From NCBI GenBank assembly GCA_963718575.1, contig OY970358.1, positions 98,723-162,722 of the forward strand: a stretch of DNA of 64,000 nt, written 5' to 3'. This DNA comes from an uncultured bacterium. GTDB taxonomy: Bacteria; Patescibacteriota; Minisyncoccia; UBA6257; 2-01-FULL-56-20. The notes below the pieces were generated by a model. It was not told the origin of the DNA. It saw only the letters and a program-made list of their open reading frames with translations, and ran no database searches. A program made the position numbers and the translations under genes. Of the stretch, positions 4,677 through 19,410 are shown one piece after another. The first letter of the stretch is position 1. The number at the start of each line of letters is the position of its first letter.

Positions 4677-4677
4677 G

Positions 4678-5913
4678 TTAGATTTTAATTTTTCCAGTCA
4701 CCGCAGCGTTAATCAGAGATGATCGATAGCTCTCAACTAATTGCCGCTGAGATTGAAATATCTCTACGGAGCGATTAATTTTCCCGCACCTCTCGTCAAG
4801 CAACTTAGCTATCGCCGTTTGTCTCGAGCGGCTCGGAACAGCTATAGGCAATGAACCCAGTCTGTATTCACCGATTCCGGGATAATTGACCCCGATTGAA
4901 TTTGCCATTACTTCGGCTAAGAAATCTTCGCTCTGGAGGGCCCAAAAAAGATAGTCACCATTGATCTGCCTTGGATGGAGGACAGCAAAACCAGTAGAAA
5001 ATACTCGGGGTCGATTTTTGTGGGTTATTTTTGCTATCGCCTTTAAATAAGTTCTCACCGTCGAAATAACCACATCCCCTTCCTCTGCCAATCGACGTGC
5101 GCGTGAAGGTGCGTCTGCAAATCTGTACAGTTGAGGGGGTTGGATTTTTCCCGTGCCATCAATATTGCCTATGTCTACATATTCGAACTCAAAATCAGGA
5201 TCGGTATTTTCAGGCAACGTTTTTTGATTTATATCAGCGATATATTTTAATTTTTTGACAGGGAATTTCTTCGAAATGTTTCGAGTTATAAGAGCGGCGC
5301 GATATTCGTTTAGCTTGTTGATTTGCAAGTTAATAAGCTCAAGGGTCTTGTCCAAAATTCTCGTACGATCTTCTAAAAAATTGCTGATTTTTTCCTGTGT
5401 GTTGATTGAAGGAACCAGGATCGGCAGATATTTCAATGCTTCGTATCCTATAGATTGGCGGACACCGCCACCCATACCATAAAATACTTTTGCGGTGTCA
5501 TAGGTATGTAATAAATAGTAAAGATAGCGAGAATCCAGTTTCTTCCTATTAACCCTTAGCCCAAGGTAGGCAGAAGTAATCATCCCCGCTTGTTTTACGA
5601 GGCCGACCCTCAAACTTTCGTGATCATTTTGTAAATCCGTCAGACGCAAGACTATATCGCCGGAATTTAGTGACTGATACGATTCGAACGACTCTGGCAA
5701 TAGGCCAAAATTTAGGTCAATGTTCCTTTGTATGATTTTCCCATAGCTCAGAGATAGAACATTCTCATTCTTGCTCGGATCGTTTTTAAGAATATTTTCA
5801 GCAGCCACCGTACGTAAAGGCAAAATCTCCCATTGATCACTGGGAATGTCCCCTACCCAAGCAATCTTGGAGGGTTTGTAATGTGTATATCCCGAATATC
5901 TTTGCCGTTTCAT
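4678..5913 (-). CDS. hsdS: Type I restriction-modification specificity subunit (HsdS), two target-recognition domains
   Basis: A 411-aa protein between hsdM and hsdR. It overlaps hsdM by 4 bp and has a bipartite TRD-like architecture. Confidence 0.75.
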   Translation of the reverse strand: MKRQRYSGYTHYKPSKIAWVGDIPSDQWEILPLRTVAAENILKNDPSKNENVLSLSYGKIIQRNIDLNFGLLPESFESYQSLNSGDIVLRLTDLQNDHESLRVGLVKQAGMITSAYLGLRVNRKKLDSRYLYYLLHTYDTAKVFYGMGGGVRQSIGYEALKYLPILVPSINTQEKISNFLEDRTRILDKTLELINLQINKLNEYRAALITRNISKKFPVKKLKYIADINQKTLPENTDPDFEFEYVDIGNIDGTGKIQPPQLYRFADAPSRARRLAEEGDVVISTVRTYLKAIAKITHKNRPRVFSTGFAVLHPRQINGDYLFWALQSEDFLAEVMANSIGVNYPGIGEYRLGSLPIAVPSRSRQTAIAKLLDERCGKINRSVEIFQSQRQLVESYRSSLINAAVTGKIKI

Positions 5914-7946
5914 ATCCCTGATTTTTTTAACAAATCACGTATTTCAACTTCACCGCTTTTTATCTCCTGCTCTATATCAGACAACTCTCTTGGATGCTCA
6001 TATTTATAAAAATATTTCGTGAACGGGATCTCGTATCCAACGATGCCCACCCGACCATCTTTTTCGTCACAGATCGAAGTATCTATCCACGCATCGGGTA
6101 CGTAAGGCTTTACTTCTCGAGTAAAATATTTGTCGATACTTTCTCCAAGCGGCACTCTTTCATAATCTTTGAGCTCATTATCTGGCTCAGAATTGCCAGC
6201 GCCATCCAAACAAACCTCCGCTCGCTCATCGCGTTTGCCGATAGTGTTTATAATCGCGTTGAGTTTTCGCTTCTGAAAAACGAGCTCAAGGTGGTCCGAT
6301 TCTTTCTTGAGTTTGGCGAGAAAATTGGGTCTATCCATAAAAACTTTTCCCTTAAGTGTCCTAACGATCTCAAATTCTGTGACGTCAAGCAAACCCTTAA
6401 GAAGTAATAAGGATTTTTCATCAACTTCAAACCTCAGCCGGAGGGGCCGCTGAATGGTAATTTCACGATAACCAAACTCGCTGACATTAAAGATTTTCGA
6501 ATATTTGCTAACTTTGAAATCACGATAGATAGTCAGTATCCGACCAATATCTTCGGTCGAAATTTCATAGCGTTTATGTCCCATATTTTTCCGCAAGGTA
6601 TGCCGGAAAGACCTTGCGTCAATAAGTTGAATTTTATCGCGCCGATCGGCGCTTTTCCGATTCGACAAGATCCATATGTAAGTGGCTATCCCCGTATTAA
6701 AAAATAATTGGTCAGGCAAAGCGACTATCGCTTTATCGAAATCATTTTCCATAATCCATCGCCTTATTTCACTTTCGCCCGATCCGGCATTGCCCGTAAA
6801 TAAAGGTGATCCGTTAAATATAACTCCGGCCACACTGCCACCTTCGGAACGCGGTTTGAATTTTGATACGATATGTTGCAGAAAAAGCAGTTGGCCGTCC
6901 GATATTCTGGGCAGTCCCGCTCCAAAACGCCCAGCAGATCCGCGTTCATGTTCGCGCTCAACCACTTCTTGGTCTTTTTTCCACTCTACGCCGTAGGGTG
7001 GGTTACAAATGACGTAGTCAAACTTCTTATCTGCATGCTGATCATTGGATAAGGTGCTTGCCTTGTCGTGCTCCCTGTCGCCACCCTTGATGTCATCAGC
7101 ATTTTCCCCCTTTAGTAACATATCCGCCTTACAAATTGCATAAGTTGCAGCGTTGAGCTCTTGGCCGAATAAATGAATCTTCGCATCTTTATTAAACTGA
7201 GTTTGAATATAATCTTTGCCGGTCGTAAGCATGCCGCCAGTTCCACAGGCCGGATCATACAACAACTTCACAATGCCAGGCTTCGATAGTTCTTTTTCTT
7301 CCCCGGCAAAAATCAGAGCCGTCATCAAACGCACAACGTCTCTCGGCGTATAGTGCTCTCCGGCGGTTTCGTTCGACTGTTCGGCAAACCGCCGAATCAG
7401 GTCCTCGAAAGCGAGGCCGATAACATGATTCGGCACCCGATCAGGGTGCAAATCGACCTTCTCGAATTCTTGCAGCACAAGATAGAGAATATTACTGCCC
7501 TCTAATCGTTCAAGCTGTTTTTCGAAATCAAATTTTTCTATAATTTCTTTGACATTATCCGAGAAGCCGTCGATATATCGACGAAGATTGCGAGCGATAT
7601 GTGCCGGATCTTCTAAGAGCTTCTTAAACGTGAACGGCGATATATTATAAAAATCGTAGCCGCTTGCGCGCCGTAGGATACGAAGGTTATGCACTTTCCC
7701 ATCCAGCTCGTTGAACTTTTCAAGAACCTTCTGTTTCGTTGGTTCAAGAGCGGCGTCCAATCTCTTGAGCACAGTCAGCGGCAGAATGACGTCTTGATAC
7801 TCGTGCGCTTTCCACGATCCGCGGAGGTGGTTGGCGATATTCCAGATTGTGTTCGAAATTTTACGATAGTTTTCTTCCATGAGGAAATCTTCAATCTGGA
7901 AACGGTTTATTAAATCTTTATTAAATTGTAGGTTCTTTGCCTTCAT
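5910..7946 (-). CDS. hsdM: Type I restriction-modification N6-adenine DNA methyltransferase (HsdM)
   Basis: Has an AdoMet motif (LYDPACGTGGML) and the catalytic NPPY motif (ICNPPYG), and spans 678 aa. Confidence 0.9.
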   Translation of the reverse strand: MKAKNLQFNKDLINRFQIEDFLMEENYRKISNTIWNIANHLRGSWKAHEYQDVILPLTVLKRLDAALEPTKQKVLEKFNELDGKVHNLRILRRASGYDFYNISPFTFKKLLEDPAHIARNLRRYIDGFSDNVKEIIEKFDFEKQLERLEGSNILYLVLQEFEKVDLHPDRVPNHVIGLAFEDLIRRFAEQSNETAGEHYTPRDVVRLMTALIFAGEEKELSKPGIVKLLYDPACGTGGMLTTGKDYIQTQFNKDAKIHLFGQELNAATYAICKADMLLKGENADDIKGGDREHDKASTLSNDQHADKKFDYVICNPPYGVEWKKDQEVVEREHERGSAGRFGAGLPRISDGQLLFLQHIVSKFKPRSEGGSVAGVIFNGSPLFTGNAGSGESEIRRWIMENDFDKAIVALPDQLFFNTGIATYIWILSNRKSADRRDKIQLIDARSFRHTLRKNMGHKRYEISTEDIGRILTIYRDFKVSKYSKIFNVSEFGYREITIQRPLRLRFEVDEKSLLLLKGLLDVTEFEIVRTLKGKVFMDRPNFLAKLKKESDHLELVFQKRKLNAIINTIGKRDERAEVCLDGAGNSEPDNELKDYERVPLGESIDKYFTREVKPYVPDAWIDTSICDEKDGRVGIVGYEIPFTKYFYKYEHPRELSDIEQEIKSGEVEIRDLLKKSGI

Positions 7947-9292
7947 TTTTCAATGATTTCTGACGCCGCCGCCAATCGCACCACCTTATCCTTGAATACC
8001 AGCCTACTCTTGAGGCACGCCAGCACTTCCCGTTTCTCTGTCACGGTACCCTCGGCAAGGAGATACTTCACGTAGTTCTTGATGTCGACCTCATCCATTT
8101 CGACTCGTTCCGGATTCGTTCCAAGGACGCTTCGCTGGAATTTGCGGAATCGCCCGACCTCTTCATCGAATTTGTGCTTGACGCCCAGCTCGTTCACGTC
8201 GATCTGATCGATGATGACGAGGAGCTGGCGGATGAGCTCATCCTCACGGATGTATCCGGCTTGGCACTTATGGTCGCGCGATCGTGTGCAGCCGTAGTAA
8301 ACGTACCGATGAGTGTTTCCATTTTTGAACTCCTTGAGTCTTTCATTCGCTGTGACGCCCGATCCACAGAGACCACACGCAATGAGCCGCGTGAAGGCAA
8401 ATTCCTTAGCTTCTCTGGCCATCTCTTTACGCTTCAACTGCGCGTTCGCTTTTTCAAAGAGTTCACGCGTTACAAGCGGCTCGTGCTTTCCCGTATAGAA
8501 ATTGCCGCTTTCTTTCGGATATTCGAGGATGCCGTAATAGAAGTGGTTTTGGATGATGAGATACACGTTGCCAAGCGTGAGATGATGATTATTTTTTGTT
8601 CTGAAATTCAGATCAAATTTGAGCCAATGGAATACCTTCATACCGCTCCATCCCTCATAGGCGAACTTCTCGAAGATCTGCTTGATGACGGGAGAGCGTT
8701 CCGGATCGACGAGAACTTGGCATTTGCGATCGCTCCTCTTTTCGTTGAGATAACCCGTCGGCGCGTGGCCGGGCCAAAGTCCCATCTCAAGTCGTGTTCG
8801 CAAGCCTCTTTTTACGTTGATCGATTTTTGATCATTTTCTAATTTTGCCTGCGAACACAGAATCATGAGCAGAAACTTCTCATTCGGATTATTCGTGAAT
8901 CGCTGGCTAAAGGTTCGTATCTCGGTGAGAAGTTTTTGATCCATGAGATCGACGAGCGATCCGAGATCTCCTGCGTTTCTGCTTAATCGATCCGGTGCCC
9001 ACGTAAGGATGCCAGTGTATCGCCCGCTCCGGATGTCCTTGAGGATCTCAGCAAAGACTGGGCGTTGGCCTGAGTCTTTCGCGGAATGTGACTCCCGCCT
9101 GATGTCCACGATCTGCAATCCCTCACGCTCGGCGAGCTGCAACATTTCTCGCACCTGACTATCGATACTCAAAACTTGTCGCTCTTCGCTCTCTGTACTT
9201 TTTCTCGCATAGAGGCAATACTTGACCTTTTCTGGGAGCGGCTGTGTCGTCGGGGTCCCCGCTGCCACGGACGCCATAGTTTGGTTTGTCAT
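7943..9292 (-). CDS. Large serine recombinase (resolvase catalytic domain + recombinase domain + zinc ribbon), LSR1
   Basis: The N-terminus (YCLYARKSTESEERQ..SIDSQ) carries the catalytic Ser/Arg motifs, and there is a C-terminal CxxC...C. Its stop overlaps the hsdM start (ATGA). Confidence 0.85.
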   Translation of the reverse strand: MTNQTMASVAAGTPTTQPLPEKVKYCLYARKSTESEERQVLSIDSQVREMLQLAEREGLQIVDIRRESHSAKDSGQRPVFAEILKDIRSGRYTGILTWAPDRLSRNAGDLGSLVDLMDQKLLTEIRTFSQRFTNNPNEKFLLMILCSQAKLENDQKSINVKRGLRTRLEMGLWPGHAPTGYLNEKRSDRKCQVLVDPERSPVIKQIFEKFAYEGWSGMKVFHWLKFDLNFRTKNNHHLTLGNVYLIIQNHFYYGILEYPKESGNFYTGKHEPLVTRELFEKANAQLKRKEMAREAKEFAFTRLIACGLCGSGVTANERLKEFKNGNTHRYVYYGCTRSRDHKCQAGYIREDELIRQLLVIIDQIDVNELGVKHKFDEEVGRFRKFQRSVLGTNPERVEMDEVDIKNYVKYLLAEGTVTEKREVLACLKSRLVFKDKVVRLAAASEIIEK

Positions 9293-9377
9293 AACTCAAA
9301 GGGGCCGCAACGGCACCCAGAAGTCCAGCCCCTCGAAAGCCTTGCAAAAGGCCCTTTAAAAGCTCTACAATCTCCCC

Positions 9378-10136
9378 ATGAATCCGGCGAATCTTCCCGC
9401 CCTCTATAACCTCATGGTGTCGCTAGTGCCTCCGGCAGTACTACTCGCAGTGCTCGCCTACTTCGTGCGCTTCTTTGGAAGAGTCATCGTTGATCAGAAA
9501 CCTTTTTGCGACGACCGCGATTGGGAGATAGAAGTCGCGGGAACTTTCTTCCTTCTCCTGCTTATAATTCTTCCGGCAGTACTCGGCGCGGTCGCGGCGT
9601 CATCGTGGGGCGGCCTCGGCACCGGCCATTGGATGCGTCTCGTTATCGTTCTCCTATTGATGTCTTGGCTTTTCATGATCAACGGCATTTTGGCCGAAAA
9701 ATTCTATGCGATAAAACTCCCTTTGGTCAATTTTTTCTTTATGTTTATTCCCCAAAAAGATCACGAAGCGCTCAAGAAGGACATGCTCACCTTCAATCGC
9801 TTTCTGCCGCTCTACGTTTTTTCCTTCATTTTCGCGTATATTTTCTCGCTGGAATACCATTCTGGAAGCGTTGCCTGGATTATCGTAACGGGAATCTTGC
9901 TTTTTATCAGCTTCATCCTCATGGCGCTCGATTTTTCGCTTCTCAAGGAACGACTGCCGCAAGTTGATATTCTTTTCATAGACAAAGATGAACCACCGAT
10001 CCGGGACGTGGCCCTTCTAAAAATAAATCAAGATAATGTGCGCATTATGGAAAAAGAGACAAAGCAGGTGATCATACTCAATAAAAGCCAGATCCGACGA
10101 ATAGAATATTTTCCACCGAAGGAATTGCAGGGATAA
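9378..10136 (+). CDS. polytopic membrane protein, hypothetical
   Basis: A 252-aa protein with 6 or more hydrophobic helices. It sits between two serine recombinases, upstream of a nuclease gene. Confidence 0.5.
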   Translation: MNPANLPALYNLMVSLVPPAVLLAVLAYFVRFFGRVIVDQKPFCDDRDWEIEVAGTFFLLLLIILPAVLGAVAASSWGGLGTGHWMRLVIVLLLMSWLFMINGILAEKFYAIKLPLVNFFFMFIPQKDHEALKKDMLTFNRFLPLYVFSFIFAYIFSLEYHSGSVAWIIVTGILLFISFILMALDFSLLKERLPQVDILFIDKDEPPIRDVALLKINQDNVRIMEKETKQVIILNKSQIRRIEYFPPKELQG

Positions 10137-10459
10137 TAAAAAAGAACAGCTCAGTCGGCTATTCTTTTGTTTCTCTCTTCCGAAATTACGATTCGATAAT
10201 TTTGTCCGCAGCCTTCTCAATTTTCCGTTCGCGCCACGCCCGTAGAATCGCCCCCGCGATGATGAGAGCGAAGATGGTGAGCGGTACTCCGCCGAAGATC
10301 AAGAGAATAATGATTGTTTCCATACGACACTGTTTTTTTGATATGCGACCTTTCACAACAATCAATGCCGCAATGGCGGGGCAAGTCCAGCGCCAAAAAG
10401 CATTGTCAAAACGGCCCAAAGCGTGATACCTTTGTAAGTAATTGAATATAAGATTGATC

Positions 10460-10610
10460 GCCTAAACCGCGCCTTCGCGTGGCATGGCATTACGCAGAAT
10501 CTCCCTTCCAGATACCAAACGCCACGTTTGGCGACTTCTGGAAGGGAGTCACTCCGAAAGGAGTGGGGCCGCAAGGCCTAAGCCAGCGTGGCGTTTTGTG
10601 TTCTGCAAAA
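10460..10610. promoter_or_regulatory. Highly structured non-coding element: ~48-bp imperfect palindrome (10501-10548), GAAA-tetraloop hairpin (10550-10565) and further inverted copies of AAACGCCACG
   Basis: Half-site ctcccttccaga...tctggaagggag surrounds ccaaacg-cca-cgtttgg. This segment lies inside the spurious 5' extension of ORF 10484. It is a candidate att site for the flanking serine recombinases, or an RNA leader. Confidence 0.45.
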
Positions 10611-10627
10611 CCCACGCCATCATTCCA

Positions 10628-11539
10628 ATGGCGATATATTCCATAGAAAACCATGCAGCAAAAAAAATCCCGGCCGTGAAGGTCGGGCTTGAGAAGGACG
10701 TGCAGAAAATATTCGAGAAAAACCTCGAGGAGATTTTAGACATCACATTCCTCGCGTCCGAATATCGGACGAGCTTCGGCGGCCGGATGGACACGCTCGG
10801 CATCGATCACAACGGCTCCCCAGTCATCATCGAATACAAACGCGGTCAGAACGATAGCGTCATCAACCAAGGCCTCTCGTATCTCCGATGGCTTTTAGAT
10901 CATAAGGCTGACTTCGAGGCGCTCACGCATCGTGCCAATATTGCGACCGCCATCGATTGGGCATCGCCGCGCGTGATCTGCGTTGCCGAGAGCTACAACA
11001 AATTCGATCTCGACACGGCCGATCTTCTGCCGATGGATATTGAGCTACTCCGTTACCGGATATATGAAAATAATATCCTCCTTGTTGAACCCGAGGTGCA
11101 ACGCAAGGTGAAAATATCAACGTCGGATATTTTCGAGAAGGCGGAGAAGCCTAAGGGCGAGTTCAGGGAAAAAATCCGACACAGCGTCGATGATCATCTG
11201 AAAACAGCGAGCCCGCAGACCCGTGAGCTTTTCGCCGCCGTCAGAGAAAAGATAACCGCCCTCGATGAATCCATTATCGAGGAATCAAAGGCAAAATACA
11301 TTGCCTATAAGCTGACGACGAACTTCGTGGACATCGTCGTCTACAAGGACTCGCTCAAGCTATTTTTGAATGTGCCGAGCGGCACGCTGATCGATTCCTC
11401 CGTGATCGCCCGAGATCTCACGAAGCCCAAGGCGATCGGCCACTGGGGCAACGGCGACTATGAAGTGAAGCTCGAACGCAACGAAGATATGGATGCCGTA
11501 ATGGGTTTGATTAAGCAGAGCTACGAATATAACAAATAA
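10628..11539 (+). CDS. PD-(D/E)xK (NucS/DUF91-like) nuclease domain protein with a C-terminal DUF5655-like domain
   Basis: Motif GGRMDTLGIDHNGSPVIIEYKRG (D..E.K). I place the real start at MAIYSIENH (10628) rather than the ORF-track start, because the upstream 48 codons are palindromic non-coding DNA. Confidence 0.6.
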   Translation: MAIYSIENHAAKKIPAVKVGLEKDVQKIFEKNLEEILDITFLASEYRTSFGGRMDTLGIDHNGSPVIIEYKRGQNDSVINQGLSYLRWLLDHKADFEALTHRANIATAIDWASPRVICVAESYNKFDLDTADLLPMDIELLRYRIYENNILLVEPEVQRKVKISTSDIFEKAEKPKGEFREKIRHSVDDHLKTASPQTRELFAAVREKITALDESIIEESKAKYIAYKLTTNFVDIVVYKDSLKLFLNVPSGTLIDSSVIARDLTKPKAIGHWGNGDYEVKLERNEDMDAVMGLIKQSYEYNK

Positions 11540-11550
11540 GTTTTTCGAGC

Positions 11551-12975
11551 ATGGCGAAAACCCGATCGGCCACGACGCAGGAAAATATCGCAGTTCGCTA
11601 CTGTCTCTATGCCCGTAAGTCGATGGAAGACGAGGAACGCCAAGCGCTTTCCATAGATTCGCAGCTTAACGAGATGCGGAAAATAGCGGAACGTGACGGT
11701 CTTATGGTTGCCATTGAAAAAATCGAATCGCATTCGGCCAAGGATTCCGGAACGCGTAAGGTGTTCAACCAGATGATCGGCGAGATCAAGGAAGGAAAGT
11801 ACAACGCGATCCTCACATGGAATCCCGACCGCTTGAGCCGTAACGCGGGAGACCTGGGTAAGCTCGTCGATCTCATGGATCAGCAACGGCTCTTCGAGAT
11901 TCGGACGTTCAACCAAAAATTCTCGAACACCCCTAACGAAAAGTTTCTGCTGATGATTTTGTGCAGTCAGGCGAAACTGGAAAACGACAACAAGCGCGAC
12001 AACGTCCAACGCGGCCTCCGGGCGCGGGCGCAAATGGGACTCTTCCCGACCTCGACTCCGATCGGCTATCTCACGTCGAACGACCGGAACCGGCCCTGCG
12101 AAAAGGACATCGATCCCGTGCGCGCGCCCGTCGTGAGGGAAATGTTCGAGAAGGTCGCCTACGAGCGTTACTCGTGCCATGACGTGCTCCGGTGGCTCGA
12201 GAAAATAAATTTCCGTTCGCCGAACAACAAGCTGGTGAGCCTGAGCACCGTGCAGAACATCCTGCGACGCACCTTTTATTACGGCCAGTACGAGTATCCG
12301 AGAGGCAGCGGAACGTGGTATCAAGGCATTCATACACCGATCGTCACGAAGGAATTGTTCGAACGCGCGCAGGAACAAATGGAACATTACAATCACGGCC
12401 ACGCGAAGGGGCGTAAGTCGACTCCGGAGTCGTTCGCCTTCCTCCGGCTCATCCGTTGCGGCAACTGCGGCGCGGGCATCACGGGTTCCGATACGTACAA
12501 GCATTTGAAAAACGGTAAGGTGCTCTTCTACCGCTATTACGCCTGCACGCAAGGCAAGAGCCGTTGGTGCCGGGAGCCCAGCATTAACGAAGTTGATCTC
12601 ATAGCGCAGCTTCTCGAAATGTTCGACCAGCTCGACATCGATCTCATAGGGACGAGGGCCCAGCTCGAGGCGGAGATCGAGAAATGGTACCGCATCGACG
12701 CCTTTGTGAGCGGCCAGCCCGTTCCGGAGCGGTCGCGGGAACGGAAGGAAATGGATTTGCGCGGATACGCGAAGGCGATATTCGAGGACGGGAGCGTCGA
12801 AGAACGAAGGGCGATGCTCCAGCATCTTAAGAGCCGCCTCATCCTCAAGGACAAGCACGTTTATCTCGACACCCTTCCGGCGGAAATAGCGGCAAAGGTT
12901 CCGCAGCCGCCCGAAGACGTGGAGAAAGATCCTCGGCTTGTGATCCGGCGCGGGCGGCGATTGCCGAAGGCATAA
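11551..12975 (+). CDS. Large serine recombinase, LSR2 (paralog of LSR1)
   Basis: YCLYARKSMEDEERQALSIDSQ... is about 60% identical to LSR1 over the catalytic and recombinase domains. A CxxC zinc ribbon (CGNCGAG) is present. The protein is 474 aa. Confidence 0.85.
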   Translation: MAKTRSATTQENIAVRYCLYARKSMEDEERQALSIDSQLNEMRKIAERDGLMVAIEKIESHSAKDSGTRKVFNQMIGEIKEGKYNAILTWNPDRLSRNAGDLGKLVDLMDQQRLFEIRTFNQKFSNTPNEKFLLMILCSQAKLENDNKRDNVQRGLRARAQMGLFPTSTPIGYLTSNDRNRPCEKDIDPVRAPVVREMFEKVAYERYSCHDVLRWLEKINFRSPNNKLVSLSTVQNILRRTFYYGQYEYPRGSGTWYQGIHTPIVTKELFERAQEQMEHYNHGHAKGRKSTPESFAFLRLIRCGNCGAGITGSDTYKHLKNGKVLFYRYYACTQGKSRWCREPSINEVDLIAQLLEMFDQLDIDLIGTRAQLEAEIEKWYRIDAFVSGQPVPERSRERKEMDLRGYAKAIFEDGSVEERRAMLQHLKSRLILKDKHVYLDTLPAEIAAKVPQPPEDVEKDPRLVIRRGRRLPKA

Positions 12976-13658: not shown

Positions 13659-14112
13659 CGACGATCTCGCCTTTTTCGTAAGACACCCAAACCATCTTTG
13701 ATCCTTTTGGTTCAACATCTTTCAACGCCTCCGGAAGTTTTTCCAGCATTGTTTTAGTGTCGGATTCGTCCATTGGCAAGACGACGGTGACCTTCTCATA
13801 TTTTATGATGCGCTCGATTCTGGCATCCGGCTTTTTCTTTTTCAAATAATCCCAAAGCTTCGTTAGAGATTTTGTAAATGCTCCCCATAAAAGACCGTCG
13901 CGCAACCATCCCCAGAGACTGAAATCCGTGAAGATTAGTTTTATAACCTCGTATACTTCCGGCAGGCCGCTTTTTTCTATATATTGAAAAACTTCGGCGT
14001 CGAATTCCTGGTCATGAAAGATCTGGGCAACCTCTTCGCGCTCTTCGTCGGTAAGGCCCTTAATACTGATCTCTATTCGATTATTTTTTGGGACGGAATC
14101 CATTTCACTCAT
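13645..14112 (-). CDS. hypothetical protein (translationally coupled to the upstream DUF2779 nuclease gene)
   Basis: The start MSEMDSVP overlaps the DUF2779 stop (ATGA). The protein is acidic and I recognise no domains. Confidence 0.4.
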   Translation of the reverse strand: MSEMDSVPKNNRIEISIKGLTDEEREEVAQIFHDQEFDAEVFQYIEKSGLPEVYEVIKLIFTDFSLWGWLRDGLLWGAFTKSLTKLWDYLKKKKPDARIERIIKYEKVTVVLPMDESDTKTMLEKLPEALKDVEPKGSKMVWVSYEKGEIVVKEW

Positions 14113-15566
14113 TTTATTTCTTTTTCTAAATTCTCCAAAATCCGCACCATTGCCATCGTATCGAGACCACAATACGTAAGCATGTCGCTTTTGATTTTCT
14201 CTCTCTCGGCCAGAGGCGTTTTTGAATCAATAAGTCGCGGCCAAGTCACCGAAGCGGTTCCACCTTCCTGAATGGCAAGTTCCTTGTAGGACAGCTCGGG
14301 CACCATGACCGGGAGAACGGCCTTGATGGACGCGCTGCCGTGAAATCCCGCATCAACATATAACTTCTTCTTGAATATGACCATGAGATCATAAACGCGG
14401 CCGTTCACCGCGTCCATGAACTCCGCATATTCGGGATAGTATTGCCCTATCTCCTTATTCCTCGGCACCTCAAATGAGGCGTACCACACGATGACGGTCC
14501 CCTTCGTGCCGATATCTTTTTCGAGCTGCGCGACCATCGCCGGTATGGGATTTTCGTCCTTCTCTGCCAGAAATTCTTTTTGCTCGACTTTGGCATCAGG
14601 CGCTTTCTTCATATGCAGCGAATATTGAAACACAATCTTCTGCCACGGGCGCGTGCCGTCGAAGGGCGGTATGGGCGATGCGAACGTCTCATAGTCCAAG
14701 AAATAGATCGGGTACACGAGCGTCGCAAGCTCTTTCTTTATCACCGCAGCGTCCACTGTTTTTGCTACGGGTTTGTATCCGAGACCCCGGAGAAAGACCG
14801 GAGAGAACGAATTACCATCGAGTACTCCTTTCTGCAACAAGCTGAGGACGAATGCTGTCGGCCAATTCTTAACGTCTAGCTTTTTTGTTGGAGCTTGAGA
14901 AAGATAGGTCTCCAAATACTCGCACGAGCCGGTCTTTGAATTGCAAGAAAGGATGACGCGATTCTCTGGGTAATCTTTGATGGCGAGGATAACACGTGCG
15001 TCGGCTATACCTTCTTTGACCTCGGGTATCAGTTCACGTGCCTCTTCTGTGACGTCTTCGGTAATAAAAAGCTTTGCGAGTTCGATGTCCCCCTTTCGGA
15101 CATATTCGTTGTTCACGTGGATCAAATATGTCTTCCCCACTTTGATGCCTGCTTCTTCAAAACAAATGAGCTGGAACGCGACGTCGTGGAGATCTTCCGG
15201 CCGAACTTTGGTTGCACTCTTCACTTCGCGAATGTCGTAGACATCTGCCGTTGGGTCATAAGTCACGATGTCCGCGCGGCACGTAAGGCCGCTCTTCGTA
15301 ATGACGGTCGGCTGGAAAATAACCTTGGTCTTTTTGTCGAAGAGTTCCTTACTCTTGCGCCAACCCTCTTCGCCAAACTCAAAAGGCTCTACGCCATCTT
15401 TGAAGAGCTTCTTCGCGAGCGCATCCACCTTTTCGCCTTCCTGTTCATGAAAGAGTCCTGACGCCGAATGAGGCGGCATAAGATGTTTGCCCTTTCGTTC
15501 CATCCAAAGATAGCAGCCGCATTCCAGATAATTCTTATAATCGGTTTTGGTGAATAGTTCGGCCAT
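14109..15566 (-). CDS. Dual nuclease: N-terminal Cas4/RecB-like PD-(D/E)xK domain with Cys cluster plus C-terminal DUF2779 (RNase H-fold exonuclease-like)
   Basis: Has N-terminal cysteines (ECGCYLW... CNSKTGSCEY), a D..EVK motif (YDIREVKSATK), and the DUF2779 hallmark YFLDYETF...QYSLH. Confidence 0.6.
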   Translation of the reverse strand: MAELFTKTDYKNYLECGCYLWMERKGKHLMPPHSASGLFHEQEGEKVDALAKKLFKDGVEPFEFGEEGWRKSKELFDKKTKVIFQPTVITKSGLTCRADIVTYDPTADVYDIREVKSATKVRPEDLHDVAFQLICFEEAGIKVGKTYLIHVNNEYVRKGDIELAKLFITEDVTEEARELIPEVKEGIADARVILAIKDYPENRVILSCNSKTGSCEYLETYLSQAPTKKLDVKNWPTAFVLSLLQKGVLDGNSFSPVFLRGLGYKPVAKTVDAAVIKKELATLVYPIYFLDYETFASPIPPFDGTRPWQKIVFQYSLHMKKAPDAKVEQKEFLAEKDENPIPAMVAQLEKDIGTKGTVIVWYASFEVPRNKEIGQYYPEYAEFMDAVNGRVYDLMVIFKKKLYVDAGFHGSASIKAVLPVMVPELSYKELAIQEGGTASVTWPRLIDSKTPLAEREKIKSDMLTYCGLDTMAMVRILENLEKEIK

Positions 15567-15567
15567 T

Positions 15568-15792
15568 TCAATTAAAATTCTTCATTAATGTCGCTACTTT
15601 TTCACCTGCGTATTTCAAAATTTCCGGCGCACACTCCTTACAATAATTTTTCGATCCGAGACTATTCCTTTCGCGAATTAATAGGTGCGATTCTCCGGCC
15701 TGTATCTTGTGCTTTTTGGTCCTATGACACTTCCGCGACTTAATTGCCGTATCAATAGAAACATGAACGAGGATGTCCCTAGTTTGCGCCAT
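15568..15792 (-). CDS. small zinc-finger protein, hypothetical
   Basis: A 74-aa protein with KCHRTKKH...YCKEC. It overlaps the helicase stop by 14 bp. Confidence 0.3.
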   Translation of the reverse strand: MAQTRDILVHVSIDTAIKSRKCHRTKKHKIQAGESHLLIRERNSLGSKNYCKECAPEILKYAGEKVATLMKNFN

Positions 15793-17866
15793 GTTGTTTC
15801 TTTTGGGCTTCTTCGATGCGACTCTTTATTTCATCGCCAACTGCGTCGAGCTCCTCCATACCCGTCTCCGCCTGGGTTGCGGACAATGTGCTGCGTTTTT
15901 TCTTTTCTATTCCCGCTTTCCGGTTCACGCCAGACTGCACCATGCGGATTGCCGCAACAAGGTTCGCAGCGCCTCCGGCTTCCTGTGGGAGCAAGCGGCT
16001 CAGCTCAAAACCGCCTACTGATAAATTAAGATCTTTAAGAATCCGCGCGGCAACCGACTTCGGTCGATCGGCAAGCCGCTTGCGGGCCCCAATCCTCCGT
16101 TTTTGAGGCGATACGGGTATTATCTGCGGCGTGGCATCCAGTACTTCTTTTTGAGCTTCTTTCAATTTCGCCCTCAATTCGTCGCGCGTGAAAAATTTTC
16201 TGAACGGAACGCCCGCACCCGGCACAACGATATCCAAAATCTTGTCGATGATGCGATCGTCATTTGGATCAAGAAACGACTGTTTTACAAAATTGCTTAT
16301 GATCTCGTCGTGGACCATCATGTCTTTGTCGAAGCGGCGCGGTCGCCCGCCGCCACCACTGCCATCACCATCATCATCCTTGGTTGGTTGCTCTTCAAGC
16401 CATCGCCGAAACACCTCTTGGTCTTCAAGGTCGAATTCTCGGAAGTCACGCCAATTTCCATCATTATTGAGGCCGACGTGAGAAACCACATATCCGTGGT
16501 TCGCCGGATTGCTCGGATCGTCCTGAAACATGACCCGCATGATGCGTCCCACGAACTGGACATATGGGGAAAGGCTGCGGAACGGCCGGAAGATCGCCGC
16601 CACGCTGAGTGGCGGATGATCAAACCCCTCACCGAGCATCTGGACTTGCACGATACAGTCTATTTTTCCATCCTCCAGCTCCTGGAGAACTTTCTCCTGC
16701 TTGGTCGCATCCATCTCGCTATATATCTCGCGTGCGCTGACGTTCCGCTGTTCATAAAGCGTCCGGATCTGACGGGCGTGGTCGATGGAACAGGCCGCTG
16801 CGATGATCTGCTGTTTTTGCCCGGTCTTCGCTCGTAGCTCTCTCATGCGCTGGATGCTCGCGTCAACGATGTGGGCGTTACACTCGGGAGCAAGAGCAAC
16901 GCCATGACGAAACCATGATTCTTCTCGCAACTCCATAACTTCTTCCAAGGTGTGCCGCTTTGTGTCTCCTCTATAGGTGAAATAAATTTCCGAAGGCGCG
17001 ACATTGATCGAATGTATCTGCTTAATATACCCCGCAAGCATCGCTTTCGAATATGGGAAGCGGTACACGACTTCGCCGGTAACGCGCTGACCGTCGCTTC
17101 TGAACGGGGTTGCCGTCAAACTGGCAACTTTCGCCTCAGGGAATCGCTCAAAAACCTTCTTCCAACTTTCGGCCACATTGTGATGCCCTTCATCAACAAG
17201 AATCATGTCGAAGAAATTGGGAGGGAACTGCGGTAACCATCTGTCGGCAGAGCTCGCGAGCTGCTGGATATTCGTAACCACATACTGGCTTTCCGTGCAG
17301 TCATGTATGTTCGCATTCGGGCCATCGAGCAGCGCGACGAAGGGTCCATCGGCGAACGAAGAAAGAACTTTTGTTTTGCCAAGGAAGAATTTGGGATGTC
17401 CCACTTCAAGCGCCTCGTAGATACCTTTGCGTATCGTCGTATTCGGCGCGATCACCAAAACACGTCCCTGCGAGATTCCAAAAGGTAACGTAGCGATGAT
17501 GCCAGTTTTGCCGCATCCGACCGGAATTTGAATAATGGCGGGCGCACGATGCTTTTCGAAATATTCACGTACCGCTTTATGGGCTTCCCGTTGCGGCTCG
17601 CGAAGCCGCTCATTATTTTCTATGTCGGCGATGGACTTCACAAAAATATCCCCGGGATTGATCTGCTCGGCTCGCTTATATTCGAGGCGCAACGGCTCCA
17701 AGTCGGCGCGTTTATAATAACGGTAATCATTTCCCGGATGCCGCACCGATTTGAGCTTCCCTTCAGCATCCCATCGGCGAAGGGTCTGTGCAGATATACC
17801 CAGAAACCGAGCTGCCTGCTGGATAGTGAGATATTCTTTTTCCTGTTCGTTATCAGCCATACCCAA
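15779..17866 (-). CDS. MerR/excisionase-type HTH fused to DEAD/DEAH (ResIII-like) SF2 helicase with an uncharacterised C-terminal domain
   Basis: HTH (LTIQQAARFLGISAQTLRRWD), Walker A (PVGCGKTGI), DEGH (LVDEGHH), helicase C motifs, and a Gly-rich linker (GDGSGGGGRP). Confidence 0.7.
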   Translation of the reverse strand: MGMADNEQEKEYLTIQQAARFLGISAQTLRRWDAEGKLKSVRHPGNDYRYYKRADLEPLRLEYKRAEQINPGDIFVKSIADIENNERLREPQREAHKAVREYFEKHRAPAIIQIPVGCGKTGIIATLPFGISQGRVLVIAPNTTIRKGIYEALEVGHPKFFLGKTKVLSSFADGPFVALLDGPNANIHDCTESQYVVTNIQQLASSADRWLPQFPPNFFDMILVDEGHHNVAESWKKVFERFPEAKVASLTATPFRSDGQRVTGEVVYRFPYSKAMLAGYIKQIHSINVAPSEIYFTYRGDTKRHTLEEVMELREESWFRHGVALAPECNAHIVDASIQRMRELRAKTGQKQQIIAAACSIDHARQIRTLYEQRNVSAREIYSEMDATKQEKVLQELEDGKIDCIVQVQMLGEGFDHPPLSVAAIFRPFRSLSPYVQFVGRIMRVMFQDDPSNPANHGYVVSHVGLNNDGNWRDFREFDLEDQEVFRRWLEEQPTKDDDGDGSGGGGRPRRFDKDMMVHDEIISNFVKQSFLDPNDDRIIDKILDIVVPGAGVPFRKFFTRDELRAKLKEAQKEVLDATPQIIPVSPQKRRIGARKRLADRPKSVAARILKDLNLSVGGFELSRLLPQEAGGAANLVAAIRMVQSGVNRKAGIEKKKRSTLSATQAETGMEELDAVGDEIKSRIEEAQKKQHGAN

Positions 17867-17940: not shown

Positions 17941-19410
17941 CTACATCTCCACGTACCCTATCTTCGGCAACCCGAGCCCGTGCATTTTGACCATCCCCCA
18001 TATTAACCAAACAAACGCGTCACAGAGATCGTCGTGTTTTTCGTTACCCAATCCAAAGATCTGCTGGAGTAATTGCTCGCAGCCGACGCGTGGGAATAAA
18101 ACCGTGCCGTTCTTTATATACGGCGCAATCACCTCGAGCCGCGTGCGCTTGTCTTTCATCGCCACCATGCGCTCAACGGAGAGCAATGCATTTTCCATCT
18201 CCTGCGCCACAGCTTCCCCGACGTTGTTCTGCTCGCAATAGAAGAGATGCATGCCGTCGTGATCCATCTTCTTCATGAACTTTATAAACTCCGCGAGCCG
18301 CACGTGCTCGTTATACGGGTTTGGCATGACGTAAAGCTTCGCCTGATCGCCGCCTTCAAAGAGGAATGCCTTGCCATCCACCATCGCCATGAAGTCGGCG
18401 GATTCTTTCTGTGATAACGCGCAGTCGATGCCGTGCCCAGTGAATCCCGCGTCGGTCACCACGTGATCGAGCCCTTTCTTGTCGGTATACGTCTCCGGCA
18501 ATGTATCGTAGTAGCGGATGTCTTCCGGCTTCACCACCTGATCGGCGGGCGGCACGATCTGCAACAAATATTCGCGGGAGAATGCCGTGGCTCCCACGAG
18601 CTCGGCTTGTTTCTTAATCGCCACGGCCGTCGGAAAGAGTGCGGGCCATGCGCAATGTTTTGCGAGCCCCGCGTAATCGGTGCCGCGATAATCCCCTGCA
18701 AGCCGATACTCAAGCACCTTGTCCATGCGATCCTTCATGCGGGCAAGGAGGCAATCGTCGTGGAGCAGGTTTCCGATAAGGACAAGCTTGCGCCGTTGGG
18801 GATCAAGCGCCGGGATTACCTCGTTCACGAGCCAGTTCTCGCTCTTATCGCGATTGCCCTGCGTCTTCACCCACTCCGTATCTTCGGGATCGTCAAGAAT
18901 GAGCAGTGAGGGACGCGCGTGGCCGTGTTTGATGCCACGGATCTTCTGCCCGCGCGACCTGGCAATGATGCGAACGCCGTTTGAGAGAAGGAGGTTCTGT
19001 TTCTGCCATTCTTCCCCTTTGATCTTCCACTCCTCAGGATCTTTCCCTTTCACGATGCCGAAGTCCGCCTTCAGGACAAAATTATTGTCGAGCTCGCGCT
19101 TGATGTTTGCGATCACCTGGCTCGATTGCGAGAATTTGTCGCCGACGAGCACGATGTACTGATACCGTTCGGGATGCACGAGCGCGGCCCAGAGCGGCAG
19201 CGCCAGGCTGCCGTAGAAACTCTTCGCGCTCTGGCGGAACCCCAATATTTCAAGGAACTCGCAGCTGTGATCGCCCAACGCATCCGCCATCTCTTTATGG
19301 AATCCGGCGGGCGGAAGCGAGAGGCCGTCCGCGAGATAGACCTGCGTGAATCCCCAGAGCGTCTTCGCCATCTCCCGCCGGACGTTATAATCTTCGAATT
19401 GGTGTTTCAT
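17941..19410 (-). CDS. terL: Phage terminase large subunit-like protein (ATPase + RNase H-like nuclease)
   Basis: Walker B (LLILDDPED), a C-terminal acidic nuclease motif (HDDLCDAF), size 489 aa, and a small upstream partner gene. Confidence 0.6.
   Translation of the reverse strand: MKHQFEDYNVRREMAKTLWGFTQVYLADGLSLPPAGFHKEMADALGDHSCEFLEILGFRQSAKSFYGSLALPLWAALVHPERYQYIVLVGDKFSQSSQVIANIKRELDNNFVLKADFGIVKGKDPEEWKIKGEEWQKQNLLLSNGVRIIARSRGQKIRGIKHGHARPSLLILDDPEDTEWVKTQGNRDKSENWLVNEVIPALDPQRRKLVLIGNLLHDDCLLARMKDRMDKVLEYRLAGDYRGTDYAGLAKHCAWPALFPTAVAIKKQAELVGATAFSREYLLQIVPPADQVVKPEDIRYYDTLPETYTDKKGLDHVVTDAGFTGHGIDCALSQKESADFMAMVDGKAFLFEGGDQAKLYVMPNPYNEHVRLAEFIKFMKKMDHDGMHLFYCEQNNVGEAVAQEMENALLSVERMVAMKDKRTRLEVIAPYIKNGTVLFPRVGCEQLLQQIFGLGNEKHDDLCDAFVWLIWGMVKMHGLGLPKIGYVEM

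What the first reader, a model, noticed from the sequence alone, without database searches (positions are those of the whole stretch)
9293..11539. Recombinase-bracketed cassette: membrane protein + PD-(D/E)xK/DUF5655 nuclease preceded by a ~150-bp palindromic, hairpin-rich element
Two paralogous large serine recombinases face outward from a 2.2-kb cassette. The cassette carries a 6-TM protein and a NucS-like PD-(D/E)xK nuclease with a DUF5655-like tail. Immediately upstream of the nuclease gene lies a 48-bp imperfect palindrome (10501-10548) with a ccaaacg-cca-cgtttgg core. A perfect GAAA-tetraloop hairpin and inverted copies of AAACGCCACG follow. The ORF caller translated this segment as a false N-terminus. 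The architecture resembles att sites of large serine recombinases. Alternatively it could be a structured RNA leader. A membrane protein + nuclease pair next to a type I RM system is a typical context for abortive-infection or defence candidates.
Basis: partly seen in the sequence, partly recalled or inferred. Interest (0 to 1): 0.68.

Follow-up and report, generated by a model that had tools for sequence, protein, structure and literature searches.

The report
LOOT RNA leader before nuclease gene
The hairpin-rich element is a copy of LOOT, a known structured RNA of unknown function, and it most likely acts as a switch-like leader for a candidate defence nuclease gene inside a mobile element, not as a recombination site.

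Summary
The hairpin-rich element (10457-10597, + strand) is a full-length LOOT RNA (Rfam RF03000, 54.9 bits against a cut-off of 46.4). LOOT is an orphan structured RNA known mainly from metagenomes. It is not an att site.

In 102 relatives every helix covaries and carries G·U pairs, so selection acts on the + strand RNA. Three features lie outside the Rfam model:
- A 15-bp helix joins the tip of the long hairpin to a 3' tail followed by a U-run. It excludes the local tip stem.
- LOOT has its own -10 box and a conserved 5' leader.
- An ORF starts about 40 nt after the tail, and its start region can be sequestered (here CGCCAU:AUGGCG).

LOOT is therefore most likely a cis-acting switch-type leader; this is inferred, not shown.

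The nuclease starts at 10628 (303 aa). It has a NucS-like PD-(D/E)xK fold plus DUF5655 and matches the untested PADLOC candidate PDC-S18. LOOT precedes it in 5 of 6 orthologue groups.

LOOT loci are about 15-fold enriched for large serine recombinases. Some also hold terminase, ParB-methylase and DGR genes. The membrane protein is not a conserved partner. All parts belong to known kinds.

The parts
7943..9292 (-). Large serine recombinase recL (449 aa).
   Evidence: It has Resolvase, Recombinase and Zn_ribbon_recom domains and matches phrog_95 integrase at E 3e-63. Orthologues at 59-61% identity sit in the same upstream, divergent position in L367-371 and L376.
9378..10136 (+). Membrane protein of 252 aa, about 5-6 TM segments. 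It is not part of the conserved module.
   Evidence: Only a sub-threshold EbsA hit. No PADLOC or PHROG hit. No homologue in any fetched locus.
10140..10168 (.). Terminator-like hairpin between the membrane gene and the small opposite-strand ORF.
   Evidence: Stem of 11 pairs followed by a T-run.
10186..10323 (-). Small ORF of 45 aa with one hydrophobic segment, divergent from LOOT. Unconfirmed as a gene.
   Evidence: ORF list. No homologue in related loci.
10403..10448 (+). Promoter-like region and 5' leader of LOOT: TTGTCA (10403-10408), the conserved CGTGATACCTT (10422-10432) and the leader motif TAATTGAATA (10439-10448).
   Evidence: The block is conserved between the window, L366 and L363. 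Across LOOT loci, 77 of 105 have a -10-like hexamer at -45..-8, against 11 and 23 in control windows. The leader motif occurs in 55 of 105, against 2 in controls. The window's own hexamers are weak and the simple scan did not call them.
10457..10597 (+). LOOT RNA with its 3' tail. P1 10459-10489 (internal loop UAAAC/GCAU). P2 10501-10548, with tip 10515-10531. P3 10550-10565 (GAAA loop). P4 10567-10578 (GCAA loop). Tail 10583-10597.
   Evidence: Rfam RF03000 matches 10459-10579 at 54.9 bits (cut-off 46.4). My model R1 matches 10457-10597 at 71.8 bits, E 3e-19, and it is the only hit in the window. Covariation of all helices is shown.
10517..10531 (+). Region 1: the 5' strand and loop of the P2 tip. 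It pairs either locally (tip stem) or with the tail.
   Evidence: In the window, 14 of the 15 long-range pairs form. Duplex energy is -27 kcal/mol, against -7.5 for the local tip hairpin. Family-wide, the long-range helix is 89.6% paired with 11 pairs showing double changes. The local stem also covaries.
10583..10604 (+). Region 3: tail CCAGCGUGGCG followed by the U-rich run UUUUGUGUUCU.
   Evidence: In 74% of LOOTs at least 6 of the 9 bases after the helix are T.
10606..10620 (+). Region 4: CAAAACCCACGCCAU. It pairs either with the tail (hairpin 10586-10617) or with the start codon.
   Evidence: The 3:4 hairpin has -18 kcal/mol and the 4:5 hairpin -7.6. The 4:5 hairpin appears in the fold when 1:3 is forced. 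Both pairings are kept in the nuclease-linked LOOTs L363, L366, L367 and L372.
10628..11539 (+). Nuclease gene (303 aa). N-terminal NucS-like PD-(D/E)xK domain with D55, E69 and K71; C-terminal DUF5655. The start region AUGGCG (10628-10633) is region 5.
11551..12975 (+). Large serine recombinase recR (474 aa), 11 nt after the nuclease stop and probably in the same transcription unit.
   Evidence: Domains and phrog_95 at E 8e-66. The same order, nuclease then recombinase with a gap of 8-15 nt, occurs in L363-365 and L366. DNA similarity to L366 runs from window 10358 to 12872.
17941..19410 (-). Terminase large subunit homologue. It marks the wider region as phage-derived or mobile.
   Evidence: phrog_38 at E 1e-62; Terminase_6C just below its Pfam cut-off (22.0 against 22.6 bits). 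Homologues lie next to LOOT in 11 other loci.

Best explanation
The element is a LOOT RNA (Rfam RF03000). It is the 5' part of a transcription unit that continues into the nuclease gene and probably into the second recombinase gene.

I propose that it works in cis as a structural switch built from a chain of competing helices.
- State A: the long hairpin P2 is fully closed, including its tip (1:2). The 3' tail then pairs with the next segment (3:4, 10586-10617), and the start codon is free.
- State B: the tip of P2 pairs with the tail (1:3, 14-15 bp, followed by a U-run). This could stop transcription. In read-through RNA it releases segment 4, which pairs with the start codon (4:5, CGCCAU:AUGGCG), so translation is off.

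The conserved body would be the sensing part. It consists of P1 with its invariant internal loop, the P3 GAAA loop and the P4 GNRA loop. The input signal is unknown.

The whole unit sits in a cargo position next to large serine recombinase genes in mobile elements of Patescibacteria. At that position, different LOOT copies lead very different genes.

Shown: the family identity, the helices and their covariation, the mutual exclusivity of 1:2 and 1:3, the promoter-like box, the spacing to the ORF, and the linkage to the nuclease and to recombinases.
Inferred: that the RNA switches, that it acts in cis, and the direction of the effect.
For: Identity: the Rfam match is above threshold, and 12 of 12 related loci tested also pass the Rfam threshold.

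RNA, not DNA:
- In 102 sequences 91% of cells are paired, and 46 of 52 pairs show changes on both sides.
- None of 500 shuffles, and none of the slid controls, comes near these values.
- G·U pairs occur in every helix.

New long-range helix:
- 15 pairs, 89.6% paired, with compensatory pairs such as 89-257 (CG 52, UA 29, UG 12) and 93-255 (GC 65, CG 21, AU 7).
- RNAalifold finds it unprompted.
- It holds at 91% in the 14 LOOTs that were collected with no requirement on the tail.
- It shares its 5' strand with the local tip stem, which also covaries.
- A T-rich run follows in 74% of copies.

Own promoter and leader.

Coupling to the downstream gene:
- An ATG-started ORF begins 15-75 nt after the tail in 72% of loci, against 20% at random positions.
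- In 19% of loci the 3' arm of P2 is strongly complementary to the ribosome-binding region (at or below -14 kcal/mol, against 1.9% for mismatched pairs).
- In the nuclease-linked copies a different platform is conserved, the 3:4 and 4:5 hairpins ending on the AUG.
- A conserved body with varied platforms is the usual anatomy of cis-regulatory RNAs (established knowledge).

Linkage:
- LOOT ends 20-37 nt before the nuclease ATG in 5 of 6 orthologue groups.
- The block of promoter, LOOT, nuclease and recombinase is conserved against L366.
Against: - No experiment or transcript data exist; the direction of regulation and the signal are guesses.
- Rfam files LOOT as an sRNA gene.
- The genes that follow LOOT have no common function. 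That is unusual for a ligand-sensing riboswitch.
- The long-range helix crosses the lower stem of P2, so it is a pseudoknot. It may simply be a permanent part of the fold that also forms the 3' end of a free RNA.
- The window's own copy lacks the strong match between the P2 arm and the ribosome-binding site (-7.5 kcal/mol, within the control range).
- The 4:5 hairpin is only 6 bp. Its 3' arm is coding sequence (Met-Ala), so its conservation is weak evidence.
- The window's promoter hexamers are poor.
Confidence: 0.55

Rival explanations
1. LOOT is a free-standing small RNA. The tip-tail helix plus the U-run is its terminator, and the RNA acts in trans or on its own transcript. It could work as an antisense or immunity-type regulator like C4 of phages P1/P7 or CI of P4, or as a structured RNA with some other role. 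The nuclease gene merely lies behind it in a hotspot.
For: Rfam types LOOT as an sRNA. The long-range helix is followed by a T-rich run in 74% of copies. Downstream genes vary widely. The hypervariable P2 arms, matched in a subset by a copy over the next gene's ribosome-binding site, recall the a'/a2 pairing of C4 RNA (my knowledge of Citron and Schuster 1990, not checked here). In L278 the sequence before the ATG equals the P2 arm of a different LOOT class.
Against: The ORF start sits at a fixed short distance. The window's subfamily has conserved alternative helices that reach the AUG. A helix whose 5' strand lies about 70 nt upstream is not a canonical terminator.
Confidence: 0.27
2. The palindrome is a DNA site (attP, attB or an inversion site) for the flanking large serine recombinases, and the 2.2-kb interval is a recombinase-bracketed cassette.
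For: A 48-bp imperfect palindrome has the size of a serine-integrase att site. LOOT is strongly linked to such recombinases: 32 of 124 LOOT loci against 4 of 238 other loci. In several loci it lies within 33-177 nt of the recombinase gene.
Against: The arms change freely between loci with compensation and G·U pairs, including two nearly invariant U·G pairs that would be A·C on the other strand. GNRA-loop hairpins and a promoter are part of the conserved unit. About two thirds of LOOT loci with at least 3 kb of upstream flank have no recombinase nearby. There is no second half-site and no bounding repeats in the window. There are only 11 nt between the nuclease stop and recR, which leaves no room for a right-hand site.
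Confidence: 0.04
3. The nuclease is not a defence protein. It is an accessory factor of the adjacent serine recombinase, controlling excision or direction as XisH/XisI do for XisF in the Anabaena fdxN element. LOOT would then gate a nuclease-integrase operon.
Confidence: 0.12

Closest known systems
LOOT RNA (Rfam RF03000; Weinberg et al. 2017, PMC5737381)
   Same: The window copy matches the full model (positions 1-121) above the curated score. It has the same six helices, the GAAA and GNRA loops, and the P1 internal loop.
   Different: Nothing differs in the core. The Rfam model stops after P4. The 3' tail helix, the U-run, the promoter and leader, and the platform reaching the ORF start lie outside it. 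I found no description of them in any searchable paper.
Riboswitch and attenuator leaders with translational or terminator platforms
   Same: A conserved, tertiary-structured body lies right after a promoter. Mutually exclusive helices share a strand, a U-run follows one of them, the start region is sequestered in the other state, and the platforms differ between copies.
   Different: No ligand is known. The controlled genes share no pathway. The candidate terminator helix is long-range and crosses P2.
C4 antisense RNA of phages P1/P7 and CI RNA of P4 (from my own knowledge)
   Same: All are small structured RNAs encoded in the leader of the unit they control, in mobile elements. In a subset of LOOTs a variable segment is matched by a copy over the next gene's ribosome-binding site.
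   Different: There is no sequence or structure relation, and Rfam's C4 families did not match. The matching copy occurs in only about 19% of LOOTs and is absent in the window.
PADLOC candidate PDC-S18; NucS and Shedu-type PD-(D/E)xK nucleases
Integron attC cassettes
   Same: Both are structured, strand-specific, sequence-variable palindromes next to a recombinase gene, followed by variable cargo.
   Different: The recombinases here are serine, not tyrosine. There are no cassette arrays: 2 of 100 loci have a second LOOT. The element precedes its ORF, has a promoter, and carries RNA-type tetraloops.

Membership tests
LOOT RNA (RF03000) | Score at or above the Rfam gathering score, over the whole model. 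| tested here: met
   54.9 bits against 46.4, model positions 1-121 of 121, E 1.4e-7 for the whole window.
LOOT RNA (RF03000) | Six helices supported by covariation. | tested here: met
   On 102 sequences every helix has pairs with changes on both sides, and 91% of cells are paired. The window forms them all.
LOOT RNA (RF03000) | GNRA tetraloops on the 3' hairpins, and the conserved P1 internal loop. | tested here: met
   GAAA at 10556-10559 and GCAA at 10571-10574. GCCUAAAC and GCAUGGC are invariant in the alignment, but partly by the way loci were collected. That P1 is a tetraloop receptor is a resemblance to the 11-nt receptor recalled from memory and was not tested.
Large serine recombinase | Resolvase catalytic domain, Recombinase domain and zinc ribbon domain. 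| tested here: met
   All three are above the Pfam cut-offs in both proteins. Both match phrog_95 integrase.
Serine-integrase att site | An imperfect inverted repeat whose sequence is kept among related recombinases and read as double-stranded DNA. | tested here: not met
   The P2 arms differ among nuclease-linked loci whose recombinases are 59-62% identical to those of the window, while pairing is preserved. G·U pairs are strand-specific.
Serine-integrase att site | A partner site, or junction repeats at the element ends. | tested here: not met
   No further copy of the half-site above chance. No bounding repeats. Only the window was searched, so a distant attB cannot be excluded.
PD-(D/E)xK nuclease (NucS-like) | Restriction-endonuclease-like fold with the D...(D/E)xK motif. 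| tested here: met
PADLOC PDC-S18 (candidate defence gene) | Match to the family HMM. | tested here: met
   E 1.1e-94, residues 2-301 on profile positions 22-322 of 365.
PADLOC PDC-S18 (candidate defence gene) | Protection against phage. | not testable with these tools
   No paper in the library reports a test.
Riboswitch | A conserved aptamer plus an expression platform with mutually exclusive helices. | tested here: inconclusive
   The mutually exclusive helices 1:2 and 1:3 both covary, and platforms reach the RBS or AUG. Switching itself is not shown.
Riboswitch | A specific ligand and a coherent set of regulated genes. | tested here: not met
   The downstream genes are heterogeneous: 65 of 99 have TM segments, and others are nucleases, zinc-ribbon proteins or methylases. 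Ligand binding is not testable here.
Two-gene abortive-infection pair (membrane protein + nuclease) | Conserved co-occurrence of the two genes. | tested here: not met
   The membrane protein has no homologue in any locus, including the 14 loci with nuclease orthologues.

The most novel reading that the evidence does not exclude
LOOT is a new class of cis-acting sensor RNA, riboswitch-like and with varied expression platforms. It gates accessory and defence-type cargo genes, and in this locus a nuclease-integrase operon, at an integrase-adjacent hotspot of mobile elements in Patescibacteria. It would respond to a signal still to be found.
Probability: 0.3. Interest if true: 0.8.

Novelty: new member of a known kind. 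Interest (0 to 1): 0.5.

Why it matters
LOOT has sat in Rfam since 2017 as an orphan RNA with no organism context, no partner genes and no proposed role. This locus and about 120 relatives give it four concrete properties:
- It has its own promoter.
- It ends in a helix that competes with part of its core.
- It is placed about 40 nt before very diverse genes, many of them membrane proteins or nucleases.
- It is strongly linked to serine integrases and, in some loci, to other phage or mobile-element genes.

That turns a catalogue entry into testable hypotheses about how mobile elements of the candidate phyla radiation control their cargo. It also warns annotators that LOOT is routinely translated as a false N-terminus of the gene behind it.

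Tried and rejected
- The first collection scans with GCCTAAACN{12,22}GCATGGC were too loose. A tighter pattern gave about 105 true LOOTs in the metagenome scan.
- The viral-contig scan for the nuclease found nothing.
- PHROGs has no family for the nuclease or the membrane protein.
- The PDB sequence search gave no meaningful hit.
- The half-site search and the repeat search gave nothing that could bound a cassette.
- ORFs from 19.4 to 39.6 kb show no phage structural module beyond the terminase, so I do not call the region an intact prophage.
- The supplement of the 2017 paper that describes LOOT is not held, so the discoverers' own comments could not be read.
- A possible closing helix between the 5' leader (ACAA) and the post-tail UUGUG was considered. 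I dropped it because both sides are conserved and nothing can be tested.
Full report
**What is there.** Window 7.9-13.0 kb holds the following features:
- a large serine recombinase gene on the minus strand, recL (7943-9292);
- a 252-aa membrane protein gene (9378-10136, +);
- a terminator-like hairpin (10140-10168);
- a small opposite-strand ORF (10186-10323);
- a 300-nt non-coding stretch;
- a nuclease gene ending at 11539;
- a second recombinase gene, recR (11551-12975, +), 11 nt after the nuclease stop.

The two recombinases are 50% identical. The region 10440-10640 folds far better than shuffles (-91 kcal/mol, z = -7.2).

**Identity of the element.** A scan of the whole window against Rfam gives one hit above threshold. 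LOOT RNA (RF03000) matches 10459-10579 on the + strand at 54.9 bits against a gathering score of 46.4, over the full model. LOOT comes from the 2017 Weinberg/Breaker screen of metagenomic intergenic regions (PMC5737381). In the searchable literature it appears only in database and method papers, with no function proposed. Rfam types it as an sRNA.

**Relatives.** Pattern scans gave about 16 LOOTs in species genomes and 3 in viral contigs. The named genomes are Parcubacteria, Levybacteria, Uhrbacteria, Saccharibacteria and other Patescibacteria. A further 105 or so came from metagenomes, many of them groundwater. I aligned 107 of them (A1) and built a covariance model (R1). The window holds only one copy. 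I then realigned 102 copies to the model (A2). All 12 loci that I re-tested with Rfam pass its curated threshold.

**RNA or DNA.** On A2, 91% of cells form standard pairs, against 68% in shuffles. Of 52 pairs, 46 show changes on both sides. No shuffle and no slid control comes close. G·U pairs occur in every helix. Two nearly invariant U·G pairs would be A·C mismatches on the other strand. P3 carries an almost invariant GAAA loop and P4 a GNRA loop. P1 has an invariant internal loop (CCUAAAC/GCAUGG) that resembles the 11-nt GAAA-tetraloop receptor. That last point is from memory and untested. Selection therefore acts on a folded + strand RNA, not on a double-stranded protein-binding palindrome.

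**A helix outside the Rfam model.** RNAalifold on the plain alignment unexpectedly paired the tip of the long hairpin P2 with a segment 3' of P4. Counted on A2, this helix has 15 pairs and 89.6% paired cells, and 11 pairs have compensatory changes. It is not an artefact of my search pattern, which required GGCGG in the tail. In the 14 LOOTs collected with no condition on the tail, 91% of cells pair. In the window, 10517-10531 pairs with 10583-10597 in 14 of 15 positions, through six changes relative to the consensus. The helix uses the same 5' strand as the local tip stem of P2, which also covaries. The two cannot coexist. The long-range helix also crosses the lower stem of P2. A T-rich run follows it in 74% of copies.

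**Promoter and downstream gene.**
- A -10-like hexamer lies 8-45 nt upstream of P1 in 77 of 105 loci, against 11 and 23 in control windows.
- A conserved leader motif (ACAAUUnAAU) occurs in 55 of 105 loci, against 2 in controls.
- In the window these signals are weaker, but the block is conserved with L366 and L363.
- An ATG-started ORF begins 15-75 nt after the tail (median 40) in 72% of loci, against 20% at random positions.
- The ORFs are very diverse. Of 99, 65 have a hydrophobic segment. Others are zinc-ribbon proteins, small and large nucleases, or methylases.

**Links from the RNA to the start of the ORF.** In about 19% of loci an exact copy of the 5' arm of P2 lies directly before the ATG, so the 3' arm of P2 can cover the ribosome-binding region. 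The duplex energy is at or below -14 kcal/mol in these loci, against 1.9% of mismatched pairs. The window lacks this feature.

The window and the other nuclease-linked copies have a different platform. The tail also pairs with the next segment (3:4, 10586-10617, -18 kcal/mol). The 3' end of that segment, CGCCAU (10615-10620), pairs with the start codon AUGGCG (10628-10633, -7.6 kcal/mol). When the tip-tail helix is forced, the start-codon hairpin appears in the minimum-energy fold. About half of all LOOTs have a 3:4-type hairpin. This chain of competing helices (1:2, 1:3, 3:4, 4:5) is the basis of the switch model. It is inferred from sequence only.

**The nuclease.**
- Homologues at 65-84% identity are 301-303 aa, so the gene starts at 10628. 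The 351-aa database version (P0001) translates LOOT as a false N-terminus.
- It has DUF5655.
- It matches PADLOC candidate PDC-S18 over its full length at E 1e-94.
- D55, E69 and K71 are invariant.
- No tested function is on record.

**Is LOOT tied to this gene?** In six orthologue groups sampled, LOOT ends 20-37 nt before the ATG in five (L363-365, L366, L367-371, L372-373, L376). It is absent in one (L374-375), where a small HTH gene precedes the nuclease. A related nuclease family shares the N-terminal domain (hhalign probability 95%). It follows LOOT in five other loci, including a viral contig.

**Recombinases and context.**
- A large serine recombinase gene lies in 36 of 107 LOOT loci.
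- By tblastn the figure is 32 of 124 LOOT loci against 4 of 238 non-LOOT loci. At least one of those four (L342) is a LOOT locus that my list missed. The control loci come from other taxa, so the roughly 15-fold enrichment is a rough figure.
- Among loci with at least 3 kb of upstream flank, about one third have a recombinase gene there.
- The gene is usually upstream and divergent (26 loci). In 6 loci it is upstream on the same strand, ending 33-62 nt before LOOT in five of them. In 5 loci it is downstream on the same strand.
- Other recurrent neighbours are a terminase large subunit, a ParB-methylase fusion, a small HTH protein, and DGR reverse transcriptase with Avd.
- The window has a terminase homologue at 17941-19410 but no further structural genes.
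- recL-type and recR-type orthologues keep their respective positions in other loci, and L366 has both.
- The block of promoter, LOOT, nuclease and recR is conserved at the DNA level against L366, from 10358 to 12872.
- The membrane protein and the 45-aa ORF have no homologue anywhere in the data.

**Verdict.** The element is a known RNA family member and the nuclease a known candidate family. The recombinases are ordinary serine integrases of a mobile region. The att-site idea fails its tests, and the RNA-leader idea holds. What the analysis adds concerns the orphan LOOT RNA: its 3' extension, its competing helices, its promoter, its coupling to the next gene, and its link to integrase-bearing mobile elements. 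Whether it is a cis-acting switch (my preferred reading, about 0.55) or a free small RNA (about 0.27) needs transcript mapping and mutational tests.

Noticed in passing
window 10468-10483 and 12398-12413: The P1 hairpin of LOOT (CGCGCCTTCGCGTGGC) is 15 of 16 complementary to a stretch inside the recR coding sequence (GCCACGCGAAGGGGCG) on the same strand (I14). LOOT RNA could in principle pair with recR mRNA. It may be chance.
   Followed up: no
window 1707-7946: A type I restriction-modification set (989-aa, 411-aa and 678-aa ORFs, all on the minus strand) abuts recL. The subunit assignment is my reading of the translations; none was scanned against a family library. Type I R-subunit homologues also lie near LOOT in L244, L306 and L320, and next to the nuclease in L363 and L366.
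   Followed up: partly
window 14109-15566 and 15779-17866: A DUF2779 protein with weak Cas4-like matches, and a 695-aa helicase with an N-terminal MerR/excisionase-like HTH (PADLOC type IV restriction and PbeA-like matches), lie between recR and the terminase gene.
   Followed up: no
L002 3616-3758(+) and 4278-4414(-); L292 788-934 and 1965-2108: Two loci carry two LOOT copies, convergent in L002 and tandem in L292. L292 also has a P1-only fragment followed by unrelated sequence.
   Followed up: no
L002, L244, L361, L351, L305, L153: Diversity-generating retroelement genes (reverse transcriptase plus bAvd) lie within a few kb of LOOT. In L002, L244 and L361, LOOT directly follows the ORF next to them, which I take to be the DGR target gene.
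   Followed up: partly
L278, about 20-34 nt after the LOOT tail: The sequence before the ATG (TCCATCCAAGG) equals the P2 5' arm of a different LOOT class (L002, L244, L265, L361), not that of its own LOOT. This hints at module shuffling or cross-regulation.
   Followed up: no
L367 982-1068; L109 3376-3462; L351 8819-8903; L324 2489-2706: tRNA genes lie 1-3 kb from LOOT or the recombinase gene in three loci, which could mark integration sites. A group I intron lies about 0.9 kb from LOOT in L324.
   Followed up: no
upstream of LOOT in L314, L315, L320, L334, L278, L243: A second conserved block (…TGGACGC.AAGGTCGAT…) sits about 35-55 nt before P1, in the spacer towards a divergent recombinase gene. 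It could be an operator or part of the recombinase promoter.
   Followed up: no
window 10484-10627 and database protein P0001: Gene callers translate LOOT as an N-terminal extension of the nuclease (351 aa instead of 303). P0007 (349 aa, checked in L366, where LOOT overlaps the called gene) shows the same artefact. Other over-long homologues such as P0022 (345 aa) and P0046 (363 aa) probably do too but were not checked.
   Followed up: yes
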